NCBI GenBank assembly: GCA_964016885.1
Contig: OZ024741.1
Location: 183,706,001 to 183,770,000, forward strand
Length of the DNA stretch: 64,000 nt
Direction: 5' to 3'
Origin: Eledone cirrhosa
Lineage: Eukaryota
Below are positions 1,791-4,339 of this stretch, piece after piece. The position numbers were made by a program, and so were the translations under genes. Numbering within the stretch: position 1 is the stretch's first letter; each line of letters starts with the position of its first letter. The notes below the pieces were generated by a model, which worked only from the letters and a program-made list of their open reading frames with translations, did not search any database and had not been told where the DNA came from.

Positions 1791-3307
1791 TCTCTCCATA
1801 TTTCTAGAATCACAAAGGGTAATCATTGATTATGTTAGTGATATATGGTACAAACACGTTATAAATCTCAGTTCTCGTGATCAAATATTACCAGTACATT
1901 ACTCTTATTGCCAGATTGTAATTAAAGACAAAATCAATACAGAAGGTCGACTGTGTATGCGTCCTCTATAGATGTATTTTCTACTATTCTCTTAATATGT
2001 TACGAAACGTTTAGAAAGCTTTGTAGTAGGGTATGCTTTGAGGGAGGTTTGTTTCAGCTATTTCTATCTGGCTGATTGACTAATTAGAGAACTTCTTCAT
2101 CAGTACACAATAAAAAAGTAAAAGTATAGTTATATATGGTTCAATCTTATTTTCATGCCTTAAACGAATCAACTGTGAACAACTCTCTAGTTTTGTCTAT
2201 TATAAACTGAGAGGTCGTAAGTTTGCACCTTAGTAAATTGTTGCTGAGGAGTTTAGCCCCAGTGAAGCTCTGACTGGAAATATCTAGGATCGAAGACATT
2301 TAAGCCGAGACAACCCTGTCTTTATTTCATACCTTGGACTATGTTATACACTATTTCTATATTTTTCAAATGTCTGTAGGGTGTGATTAAAAGGGCATTT
2401 AACTGCTATTTCTAGAAGGTGAAGCTTCTACACAAAGGCTCATTGTTAGCTCGTATCTAGACACATACTCCTCCTACAGATATACATATAAACAGGTAAG
2501 ACAGTAGGGTGTAATTTAAGGGAGATTTGACTGCTGTTTCTAGAAGGTCAATCTACTAAGTAGATGGTACTCGATAGGTAATACCCTAGAGAGATCCAAG
2601 TGGGTAGCTATTTTTGCTGTTGTTTCACTTCAAATCAGTCACGACGGAGCAGATCTATGATCAAAGGCGCTAATATCACCTCTTATTTCATGTAGCACTA
2701 TGACTCAGCGTGTCCTTCTTTTAAGACAAACAACAGCTATCTGTCTTTTCCCCTGTCACTCTGCCGTTCAGCCTCTCTGCCCATTCTTCTTTCGCTGTTC
2801 TCTTCTTCCCGACTCGCCTTCTTCGCACACACACACACACACACACACACACACACACACACACACACACACACACATATATTATATATCTATCTATATA
2901 TATTTCTGCGTGGGTGTGTGTCTATTTCTCTCTCTCTCTCTCTCTCTCTCTCTCTCTCTCTCTCTCTCTCTCTCTATATATATATATATATATATATATA
3001 TATATATATATATATATATATAAATTAATATTTGATGAACATTTACATGTTATAGTTGCAATTGACTAATAAGATCGCTAGAGTGAAACATCTTAATTCA
3101 ACAACATAAGGTCTGCCTGTACGATCTAGAAAATAATAAATCAATACTCACAGACTCATATGGGCAAAAAGCCTTGGTACCTAGACGTGCACTATGTGTG
3201 GGACGTTAGAGGACTGGAATAAGCGGTGTGCAAAACCTCGTGTATTTTCGCTACGCTAACCAGACCTTAGATATTTTTCTGAGGTTGAGTTATTTTATTT
3301 TTATCTG

Positions 3308-3467
3308 GGTGCCTATTGATAAACACAGAAATAGTTGATTAACTCACTGCTAATTAGTTAATTATTTTACTATTATACCATCCTTTGTGAAACATGTTTG
3401 AAGTTTGAAGTTCTTACCGATCTGCGGAAAAAGTTTGTATTTTGAATTTTAAACGTGTCTAGGTACC
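3308..3467 (+). ncRNA. Type I hammerhead ribozyme, U3-A8 core variant, long stems II and III
   Basis: Stem I GGTGCCTA/TAGGTACC; core TTGATAA 3316-3322; GAAA 3389-3392; ~19-bp stem III ACATGTTTGAAGTTTGAAG/TTTTGAATTTTAAACGTGT; GTC triplet 3457-3459. Confidence 0.7.
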
Positions 3468-3873
3468 AAGGCTTTTTGCCCATATGAGTCTGTGGGTATT
3501 GATTTATTATTTTCTAGATCGTACAGGCAGACCTTATGTTGTTGAATTAAGATTTTTCACTCTAGCGATCTTATTAGTCAATTGCAACTATAACATGTAA
3601 ATGTTCATCAAATATTAATTTATACTGCTCAGAAGCGATTCCTAGAGCTGAAATGATTGTAAATGACCTCTCTGCGTCTAAACTCTAAGCTATTTATCAC
3701 TGCTCCCCAAGGTGAGCTGAATTTTGTAATCCCATACAAACGGCTATTATTTCTAGCACTATGTGTGGGACGTTAGAGGACTGGAATAAGCCGTGTGCAA
3801 AACCTCGTGTATTTTCGCTACGCTAACCAGACCTTAGATATTTTTCTGAGGTAGAGTTATTTTATTTTATCTG

Positions 3874-4033
3874 GGTACCTATTGATAAACACAGAAATAG
3901 TTGATTAACTCACTGCTAATTAGTTAATTATTTTACTATTATACCATCCTTTGTGAAACATGTTTGAAATTTGAAGTTCTGACCGATCTGCGGAAAAAGT
4001 TTGTATTTTGAATTTTAAACGTGTCTAGGTACC
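3874..4033 (+). ncRNA. Type I hammerhead ribozyme, U3-A8 variant (second tandem copy)
   Basis: GGTACCTA/TAGGTACC; TTGATAA 3882-3888; GAAA 3955-3958; GTC 4023-4025; two G.U pairs of copy 1 are A-U pairs here. Confidence 0.7.
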
Positions 4034-4339
4034 AAGGCTTTTTGCCCATATGAGTCTGTGAGTATTGATTTATTATTTTCTAGATCGTACAGGCAGACCT
4101 TATGTTGTTGAATTAAGATTTTTCACTCTAGCGATCTTATTAGTCAATTGCAACTATAACATGTAAATGTTCATCAAATATTAATTTATACTGCTCAGAA
4201 GCGATTCCTAGAGCTGAAATGATTGTAAATGACCTCTCTGAGTCTAAACTCTAAGCTATTTATATATATATATATATATATATTTCGTTTCTGAATTTGT
4301 TTAGCAAGATTCTTTATCTGAAATCGTGTGTTGAAACCG

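What the first reader, a model, noticed from the sequence alone, without database searches (positions are those of the whole stretch)
3021..4263. 566-nt tandem monomer with a U3-A8 variant hammerhead and very long helices
Seen: the core reads TTGATAA rather than CTGANGA in both copies, a compensatory C3-G8 to U3-A8 swap. It has an 8-bp stem I, a ~19-bp stem III closing on GTC, and a 14-bp hairpin inside stem II. Two differences between the copies convert G.U to A-U. Predicted cleavage sites (3459, 4025) are 566 nt apart, and the rest of the monomer is also rich in hairpins. Established: positions 3 and 8 form a Watson-Crick pair and U3-A8 is a rare tolerated variant. A long stem III differs from the palindromic minimal PLE hammerheads and would allow monomeric cleavage. 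Caveat: an alternative register CACAG/TTGTG would sequester G12, so it could be a switchable or non-canonical fold. Standard CUGANGA searches would miss it.
Basis: partly seen in the sequence, partly recalled or inferred. Interest (0 to 1): 0.88.

Follow-up and report, generated by a model that had tools for sequence, protein, structure and literature searches.

The report
Pseudoknot-braced hammerhead in Penelope-mobilised retrozyme
This repeat is one copy of a non-coding jumping element with over 160 close copies in this animal genome; its predicted self-cutting RNA carries an already known core swap plus a long predicted base-paired brace that related families keep through matched changes, and it is likely copied into DNA by the enzyme of a Penelope-type retrotransposon.

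Summary
Real, and a variant of a known kind. 3019-4263 is one insertion of a young non-coding 567-nt element in (TA)n: an inverted arm plus 1.9 tandem units. Family copies have two fixed 3' ends 73 nt apart, ragged 5' ends and frequent inversions, the Penelope-like element (PLE) footprint. The type I hammerhead is supported by covariation: positions 3-8 pair in 159 of 163 related copies (U-A 113, C-G 45, U.G 1), and stems I and II covary. U3-A8 is already published for PLE hammerheads. Corrections: stem II has only 3 bp, the G12-sequestering register is not conserved, the 14-bp hairpin is subfamily-specific and lengthened by a mutation private to this insertion, and the rest of the monomer folds no better than shuffles. 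New here: the 5' flank pairs with loop II over about 20 bp, a predicted pseudoknot kept with four different sequences at its base. Both 3' ends abut a GCUC..GAGCU motif shared with an ORF-bearing Hydra-clade PLE, the likely driver. Cleavage, expression and circles are untested. The scan found this family, the motif and the Hydra link before on other DNA (e1-9533642).

The parts
2975..3022 (.). (TA)n target repeat, left flank (follows (TC)n)
3019..3186 (-). Inverted arm: monomer positions 165 down to 1 plus the last 3 nt before the cleavage site; its outer end is fixed 3' end 1 (m165)
3189..3459 (+). 5'-truncated unit (m297-566) ending at predicted cleavage site 1
3283..3307 (+). 5' strand of the predicted pseudoknot helix P0 (abuts stem I)
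3308..3467 (+). Type I hammerhead copy 1: stem I 3308-3315/3460-3467; core U3-U4-G5-A6-U7-A8-A9 3316-3322; stem II 3323-3325/3386-3388; G12-A13-A14-A15.1 3389-3392; stem III 3392-3411/3439-3458; C17 3459
3326..3348 (+). 3' strand of P0 (start of loop II, abuts stem II); in this copy it competes with a local hairpin 3329-3373
3460..4025 (+). Full cleavage-to-cleavage monomer, 566 nt here, 567 nt in the family; 18 stop codons in frame 1, no long ORF listed
3624..3650 (+). Motif 1, ACUGCUC..GAGCUG (predicted hairpin), directly 3' of fixed end 1 (m165); repeated at 4190-4216
3699..3719 (+). Motif 2, same design, directly 3' of fixed end 2 (m238)
3874..4033 (+). Type I hammerhead copy 2 (core 3882-3888, GAAA 3955-3958, C17 4025); P0 strands about 3849-3873 and 3892-3914
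4026..4263 (+). Partial unit m1-238, ending at fixed 3' end 2 (includes the 73-nt tail m166-238)
4260..4282 (.). (TA)n target repeat, right flank

Best explanation
The stretch is one two-armed insertion of a non-coding, multi-copy element of the non-LTR retrozyme type, whose RNA is predicted to self-cleave through a U3-A8 type I hammerhead likely braced by a long 5'-flank/loop II pseudoknot, and which is likely written into (TA)n DNA by the reverse transcriptase-endonuclease of a Hydra-clade Penelope-like element. Steps: (1) shown: dispersed family, fixed 3' ends at two sites, ragged 5' ends, TA target, inverted arms; (2) shown by covariation: core, stems I-III and the 3-8 pair; (3) supported by covariation and duplex energies, not by experiment: P0 forms as the RNA is made, holds stems I and II side by side and takes up the CAG bases that would otherwise slip onto G12; (4) inferred: tandem transcripts are cut to 567-nt monomers and ligated to circles; (5) inferred: the PLE protein binds the two GCUC..GAGCU motifs, cuts both strands of (TA)n and starts one cDNA just 5' of each motif, one per target strand, which gives back-to-back arms, one ending at m165 and the other at m238; (6) inferred: arms longer than one unit come from copying round a circle, or from an uncut multimer.
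For: Family: 164 exact hammerhead-core matches for this subfamily vs 0 control; 1002 vs 1 for the wider U3-A8 pattern. Ends: in 25 distinct insertions (36 loci given, 5 cut by the locus edge, 6 duplicates) 35 of 39 outer 3' ends fall exactly at m165 (17) or m238 (18), 36 of 39 abut TA repeats, all 11 outer 5' ends differ, 14 of 25 are inverted and 11 of these 14 have one end at each site; subfamilies B and C show the same two-end design. Two RT start sites bounding a tail and cutting of both strands are shown in vitro for a PLE in PMC11167929. Hammerhead: in 23 representatives 3-8 pairs 23 of 23 (UA 14, CG 8, UG 1), 6 of 8 stem I pairs and 3 of 3 stem II pairs change on both sides; in 163 distinct copies G12 159, A13 162, A14 161, A15.1 161, U16.1 162, position 17 C or A in 163, position 7 free; the 3-8 state changes at least twice on the tree, with a U.G copy beside a reverted C-G subfamily; the U10.1.U11.1 of subfamilies B/H is a tolerated natural variant. 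P0: cognate flank/loop duplex mean -15.2 kcal/mol vs -11.0 across groups, and at most 1 of 300 shuffles as good in 19 of 23; base triplet CUG/CAG, CAG/CUG, UCU/AGA and GUGG/CCAC in different families; a distant family gives -15.7 vs -9.3, significant in 15 of 20 old copies. Driver: the twin-motif pattern gives 1712 hits vs 26 control and retrieved an ORF-bearing PLE with the Hydra diagnostics (RWR, DKT, CxCX5C, CxxC, CxH, C-terminal GIY-YIG) whose 12 of 12 observed 3' ends also lie just 5' of the two motifs. One variant found nowhere else in the genome sits in both units of this insertion, as expected if one template was read twice.
Against: No cleavage, expression or circle data. The nested energy model prefers the inactive slipped register: for copy 1 MFE -45.9, catalytic fold with open loop II -30.3, P0 duplex -11.5, so the active fold only draws level before any pseudoknot penalty. 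On the plain MAFFT alignment P0 shows only 3 of 10 pairs with two-sided change (28 of 500 shuffles as high) and 87% pairing; 4 of 23 representatives, this window's copy 2 among them, have a weak P0. The GCUC/GAGC stems never covary in the alignment seen, so they may be sequence motifs and not hairpins. The Hydra family found has a different, minimal hammerhead and no extended DNA similarity to this element was shown, so it marks the clade, not the exact driver. Arm 5' ends are about twofold enriched at m1-35 (17 stops in 4155 passes vs 107 in 57523 overall) but none is exactly at m1, which does not separate circle from linear template. Many loci were fetched with core-containing queries, so core conservation is inflated, and 37% of non-core columns are as conserved as the weakest core column. 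In PMC11167929 hammerhead cleavage was not needed for insertion in vitro and needed the protein; in the 2026 preprint only 1 of 9 tested retrozyme dimers cleaved.
Confidence: 0.72

Rival explanations
1. Same element, but P0 is a delay or off-switch rather than an activating brace: it forms first during transcription as a long hairpin whose 18-nt loop holds the stem I strand and the core, and slows cleavage so that uncut multimers (or stable circles) survive as templates.
For: P0 is about two helical turns, far longer than the 4-6 bp pseudoknots tested in PMC3088659, which raises a threading problem; it is the favoured fold of the nascent copy-1 RNA (pair probability 0.8); arms cross the cleavage junction uncut, twice in this insertion.
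Against: P0 uses no core, stem I or stem II base; it abuts both stems exactly in every family examined, also where stem I is 7 bp, which fits coaxial stacking in the active fold; it removes the bases needed for the G12-sequestering slip.
Confidence: 0.15
2. The template is a linear, mostly uncut multimeric transcript from tandem source loci, as for ordinary PLEs; the ribozyme is weak or protein-gated and no circle is involved.
For: PMC11167929: unprocessed RNA was the main substrate in vitro. Tandem loci of up to about six units exist. Some multi-unit insertions differ between units at shared variants (L005, L012). No excess of exact m1 ends.
Against: The private variant in both units has no source locus in this assembly; arms and units of one insertion mostly share one haplotype; 9 of 27 site-2 arms of subfamily C are one unit long (555-571 nt, counted), though 0 of 19 in subfamily A and TA microhomology could explain it.
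Confidence: 0.3
3. The hammerhead-like fold is a decayed relic or a by-product of inverted-repeat formation in a TA-targeting repeat, without catalytic activity.
For: No Rfam hammerhead match; inactive register in the nested fold; these elements make inversions readily, and three changes in this insertion each perfect an inverted repeat.
Against: The 3-8 pair is not part of any inverted repeat yet covaries in 159 of 163 copies and has switched at least twice; position 7 is free and position 17 is never G or U, as the hammerhead consensus allows; the subfamily is young (98-100% identity).
Confidence: 0.05

Closest known systems
Metazoan non-LTR retrozymes (Cervera and de la Pena 2020, PMC7229834, passages read; Li et al. 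2026, 10.64898/2026.07.22.740005, parts 1-3 of 5 read)
   Same: Non-coding tandem unit of low GC with one type I hammerhead per unit; proposed non-autonomous PLE partner; unit length within the 51-972 bp range of Li et al.; U.U at the base of helix II also seen in axolotl HHR_Amex2.
   Different: U3-A8 core (canonical descriptors miss it); 19-bp helix III; 3-bp helix II with a large loop and a long predicted pseudoknot in place of loop1/loop2 contacts; dispersed two-armed insertions with two fixed ends; expression and circles not shown here.
PLE hammerheads, including U3-A8 min-HHRs of Schistosoma mansoni Cercyon elements (Cervera and de la Pena 2014, PMC4209133, parts 1-2 of 4 read)
   Same: U3-A8 covariation in a PLE context; type I; large helix III is reported for fungal and protist PLE hammerheads, one of which cleaves as a monomer.
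   Different: Metazoan min-HHRs have little or no helix III, a 7-8 bp helix II, an extra base between 9 and 10.1 and are thought to act as dimers; here helix III is long, helix II has 3 bp and there is no extra base.
Hydra clade of C-terminal EN+ PLEs (Craig et al. 2021, PMC8557442; section 11, passages and supplement part 2 read)
   Same: (TA)n targeting, pLTR-like tandem and inverted 5'-truncated copies, tail at one end; an ORF-bearing family in this genome meets the Hydra diagnostics and shares the twin end motifs.
   Different: This element has no ORF; all Hydra hammerheads listed in File S2 have C3-G8 and a short helix III; the tail is 73 nt, not 30-40.
Pseudoknotted hammerheads of bacteria and phages (Perreault et al. 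2011, PMC3088659, passages and section 8 read; PK hammerhead structure, Zhan et al. 2024, PMC11300833, abstract and sections 4 and 7 read)
   Same: A Watson-Crick pseudoknot holds stems I and II together, with a very short stem II; U3-A8 and U10.1.U11.1 variants.
   Different: Here the brace is about 20 bp with internal loops and occurs in an animal retroelement; helix II is kept, whereas in the PK/RAGATH-type hammerhead the pseudoknot replaces helix II, so it is not that family.
Poseidon element of Anolis (Frangieh et al. 2024, PMC11167929, parts 1-2 of 4 read)
   Same: Two internal reverse-transcription starts bounding the tail, at an RNA stem-loop downstream of the hammerhead; AT-rich target cut on both strands.
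   Different: Different clade, autonomous, minimal protein-assisted hammerhead; here each start has its own copy of a conserved motif and the two starts sort to opposite arms.

Membership tests
Type I hammerhead ribozyme | Core 3-UGAN-8-A9, G12-A13-A14-A15.1, U16.1-H17 around three helices | tested here: met
   (with U3-A8)
Type I hammerhead ribozyme | Watson-Crick pair between positions 3 and 8 | tested here: met
   159 of 163 copies pair; at least two switches on the tree
Type I hammerhead ribozyme | Helices I-III supported by covariation | tested here: met
   13 of 32 pairs change on both sides, 93.5% of cells pair
Type I hammerhead ribozyme | Tertiary contact between helices I and II | tested here: inconclusive
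   P0 pseudoknot predicted; duplex and covariation support, no experiment
Type I hammerhead ribozyme | Match to an Rfam hammerhead model | tested here: not met
   no hammerhead family at E<=1 or E<=10; expected with a loop II of about 60 nt and a variant core
Type I hammerhead ribozyme | Site-specific self-cleavage | not testable with these tools
   no RNA data or assay
Non-LTR retrozyme | Non-coding tandem unit with a type I hammerhead in at least two consecutive units | tested here: met
Non-LTR retrozyme | Dispersed multi-copy family | tested here: met
   164 exact matches on many contigs
Non-LTR retrozyme | Expressed as linear and circular monomers | not testable with these tools
   no RNA holder listed
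Non-autonomous PLE derivative | Fixed 3' end with optional tail, 5' truncation, inverted 5' copy, microsatellite target | tested here: met
   subfamilies B, C
Non-autonomous PLE derivative | Sequence homology to the pLTR of an autonomous PLE | tested here: inconclusive
   only the twin motifs, their spacing and the end positions are shared with the Hydra family found
Autonomous PLE (any clade) | ORF with RT and GIY-YIG endonuclease | tested here: not met
   no ORF of 130 aa or more listed within the element
PK / RAGATH-type hammerhead | Pseudoknot replaces helix II | tested here: not met
   a 3-bp helix II with two-sided changes at all three pairs is kept; definition

The most novel reading that the evidence does not exclude
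Animal retrozymes of this superfamily have evolved a monomer-active, ligation-competent hammerhead clamped by a two-turn Watson-Crick pseudoknot, and a Hydra-clade PLE dimer reads one such RNA circle from two copies of a GCUC..GAGCU hairpin, one start per target strand; the hairpin pair would then be a portable signal that directs any RNA into (TA)n repeats.
Probability: 0.3. Interest if true: 0.75.

Novelty: new variant of a known kind. Interest (0 to 1): 0.52.

Why it matters
It gives a testable sequence code for two open points in PLE biology: what selects the two internal start sites of reverse transcription, and what the pLTR hammerhead does. It also adds a hammerhead architecture (3-bp helix II, long helix III, long flank/loop II pseudoknot, natural C-G, U.G, U-A series at 3-8) that standard descriptors and Rfam miss in more than a thousand copies of one genome. 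The element class, the U3-A8 swap and pseudoknot bracing are each already known.

Tried and rejected
Rfam scans: no hammerhead match. Alternative register as the conserved fold: rejected, 73.9% paired, C-G12 broken in 7 of 23. 14-bp hairpin as a family feature: rejected. Rest of monomer unusually structured: rejected. Inversion point fixed at the cleavage site: rejected, inner arm ends vary across insertions. Two same-strand hit pairs 2.5 and 5 kb apart as autonomous copies: both were segmental duplications without ORF. Neighbouring PLE fragments of other families as driver: different ends and hammerheads, no twin motif seen; Pfam was nearly blind to them (1 GIY-YIG hit below cut-off in 8 proteins). 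A second ORF start with the motif (L106) could not be followed: the search returned an adjacent repeat. Sequencing runs: no RNA holder listed; three runs of unknown kind from one sample hold the element as short contigs; no conclusion on expression. RNAalifold recovers stems I and III but not the 3-bp stem II or P0. Literature: searches listed no paper on cephalopod retrozymes or on a pseudoknot in PLE hammerheads; the library lacks most subscription papers, Lunse et al. 2016 was not read, and supplementary figures of PMC3088659 and PMC4209133 were not seen.

Full report
Observation. The two copies, the TTGATAA core, the 8-bp stem I, the 19-bp stem III, the GUC sites at 3459 and 4025 and both G.U to A-U differences are in the sequence. 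The hammerhead region folds better than all 200 shuffles (z -3.95). The rest of the monomer does not (z -0.31). The first 168 nt (3019-3186) are an inverted copy of 3457-3624, so the insertion reads (TA)n, inverted arm, 5'-truncated unit, full unit, partial unit, (TA)n. Rfam gives no hammerhead match.

Family. The genome is 3.0 Gb and rich in microsatellites; a cephalopod is likely (inference: among the named protein hits are two from Argonauta, and earlier notes say so), but this was not established. The 40 candidates scored of 625 are 98-100% identical, and an exact core pattern gives 164 matches against 0 control. The family unit is 567 nt. A divergent copy in the same window (41108-41439, 76%) led to subfamilies B, C and D (monomer identities 63-76%); a wider U3-A8 pattern gives 1002 matches against 1.

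Insertion anatomy. Of 36 subfamily-A loci, 5 were cut by the locus edge and 6 were duplicates. In the 25 left, 35 of 39 outer 3' ends lie exactly at monomer position 165 (17) or 238 (18), 36 of 39 abut TA repeats, all 11 outer 5' ends differ, 14 insertions are inverted and 11 of those have one end at each site. B and C show the same design with their own two sites. This is the PLE footprint described by Craig et al. (pLTR tandems, inverted 5'-truncated copy, tail at one end), and it matches the two internal RT start sites and two-strand cutting shown in vitro by Frangieh et al.. The hammerhead is on the sense strand by this polarity.

End motifs and driver. Each fixed end lies directly 5' of a GCUC..GAGCU motif. 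A pattern made of the motifs alone gives 1712 matches against 26 and retrieved further non-coding families and one ORF-bearing PLE. Its protein has RWR, DKT, a CxCX5C linker, CxxC and CxH around a C-terminal GIY-YIG domain, the Hydra-clade diagnostics of Craig et al.. All 12 of its 3' ends seen in 41 loci fall just 5' of its two motifs (7 and 5), with the ORF start behind the second. Its hammerhead is minimal and canonical, so it identifies the likely clade of the driver, not the exact partner. The motif stems do not covary; the hairpin is predicted only.

Is it a hammerhead? Families found through the end motifs carry the orthologous ribozyme with C3-G8. On a sequence-only alignment of 23 hand-picked representatives, 3-8 pairs in 23 of 23, six of eight stem I pairs and all three stem II pairs change on both sides, and 93.5% of cells pair against 85.6% in shuffles. 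In 163 distinct full-length copies 3-8 is U-A 113, C-G 45, U.G 1, other 4; 10.1-11.1 is G-C 89, U.U 42, A-U 24, other 8; position 7 is free and position 17 is C or A. A tree needs at least two switches of the 3-8 pair, with a U.G copy next to a C-G subfamily nested among U-A ones (100/99 support; midpoint root only). Caveat: many loci came from core-containing queries, and stem III is as conserved in sequence as the core. U3-A8 was reported in nature by Perreault et al. and in about 1,300 Schistosoma PLE-related motifs by Cervera and de la Pena; U10.1.U11.1 is also known. All Hydra hammerheads listed by Craig et al. have C3-G8 and a short stem III.

The register problem and the pseudoknot. In the nested fold the CACAG/UUGUG slip wins and takes G12. 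It is not conserved: 73.9% paired, three of its five pairs broken in 7-9 of 23. Instead stem II has three pairs, and the bases right after it pair with the bases right before stem I, continuing for about 20 bp with internal loops (helix P0). The base of P0 reads CUG/CAG in most families, CAG/CUG and UCU/AGA in two others and GUGG/CCAC in a distant one. Cognate duplexes average -15.2 kcal/mol against -11.0 across groups, and at most 1 of 300 shuffles is as good in 19 of 23; in the distant family 15 of 20 decayed copies pass. On the unedited alignment only 3 of 10 chosen pairs change on both sides (28 of 500 shuffles), so formal covariation is modest. P0 shares no base with the core or stems I-III and uses the CAG needed for the slip. 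For this copy the active fold only draws level with the slipped fold before any pseudoknot penalty, so this copy may cleave less well than the family. Pseudoknot bracing of stems I and II is known from bacterial and phage hammerheads; the PK hammerhead differs in that the pseudoknot replaces helix II.

Circle or multimer. The long arm is 1074 nt and crosses the cleavage junction twice, so the template was a circle or an uncut multimer. One variant occurs only here and in both units, and arms of one insertion mostly share a haplotype, which favours one template read twice; gene conversion or a missing source locus would also explain it. Arm 5' ends are about twofold enriched just 3' of the cleavage site, none exactly on it (one duplicated locus counted twice). 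No editing scars were found. No RNA run was listed.

Comparison and verdict. It works like a metazoan non-LTR retrozyme mobilised by a PLE, and meets the sequence-level tests for both; expression, cleavage and circles could not be tested. The scan noted this family, the end motifs and the Hydra link on other DNA, similar two-armed retrozymes in this genome and short flank/loop II pseudoknots in PLE hammerheads of other genomes; those notes are not independent evidence. New variant of a known kind; interest 0.52.

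Noticed in passing
window 4283-4671: Palindrome (arms 4340-4509 and 4502-4671, 99%) that resembles by eye the 3' end and tail of another PLE family whose GIY-YIG ORF end lies in L054: a second two-armed PLE insertion in the same TA tract.
   Followed up: partly
window 41108-41439: Subfamily B copy of the same element (76%); it has C3.A8, a mismatch private to this copy (other B copies have U3-A8).
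   Followed up: yes
window about 40785-40870 (L031 1177-1265): Another type I hammerhead with canonical core, long stem II and short stem III, followed by a fixed-looking end in (TA)n.
   Followed up: no
L030 1-900, L125, L134-L139, L145, L185, L186: Family E: tandem units of about 450-470 nt with canonical core, extra base before stem II, 6-bp stem III and the same twin end motifs; its 5' flank is also complementary to loop II by eye.
   Followed up: partly
L152, L173, L178 (subfamily H); L144: Natural U4C core variant together with C3-G8, in several copies (C at position 4 in 11 of 163).
   Followed up: partly
L010 1970-2070, L066 715-800: A further hammerhead-like family in which one copy has C3-G8 and another U3-A8 with a short stem II.
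   Followed up: no
window 3331/3897, 3877, 3969: Three changes in this insertion each perfect a local inverted repeat, as templated quasi-palindrome correction would (inference).
   Followed up: no
L106 1-170: Start of another Hydra-like ORF with a GCUC..GAGC motif about 40 nt before the ATG; the family was not recovered.
   Followed up: partly
monomer m270-305 (window about 3727-3760): A block conserved across subfamilies A, B, C, D, F, G, H just 3' of motif 2; possible promoter or protein site, unexplained.
   Followed up: no
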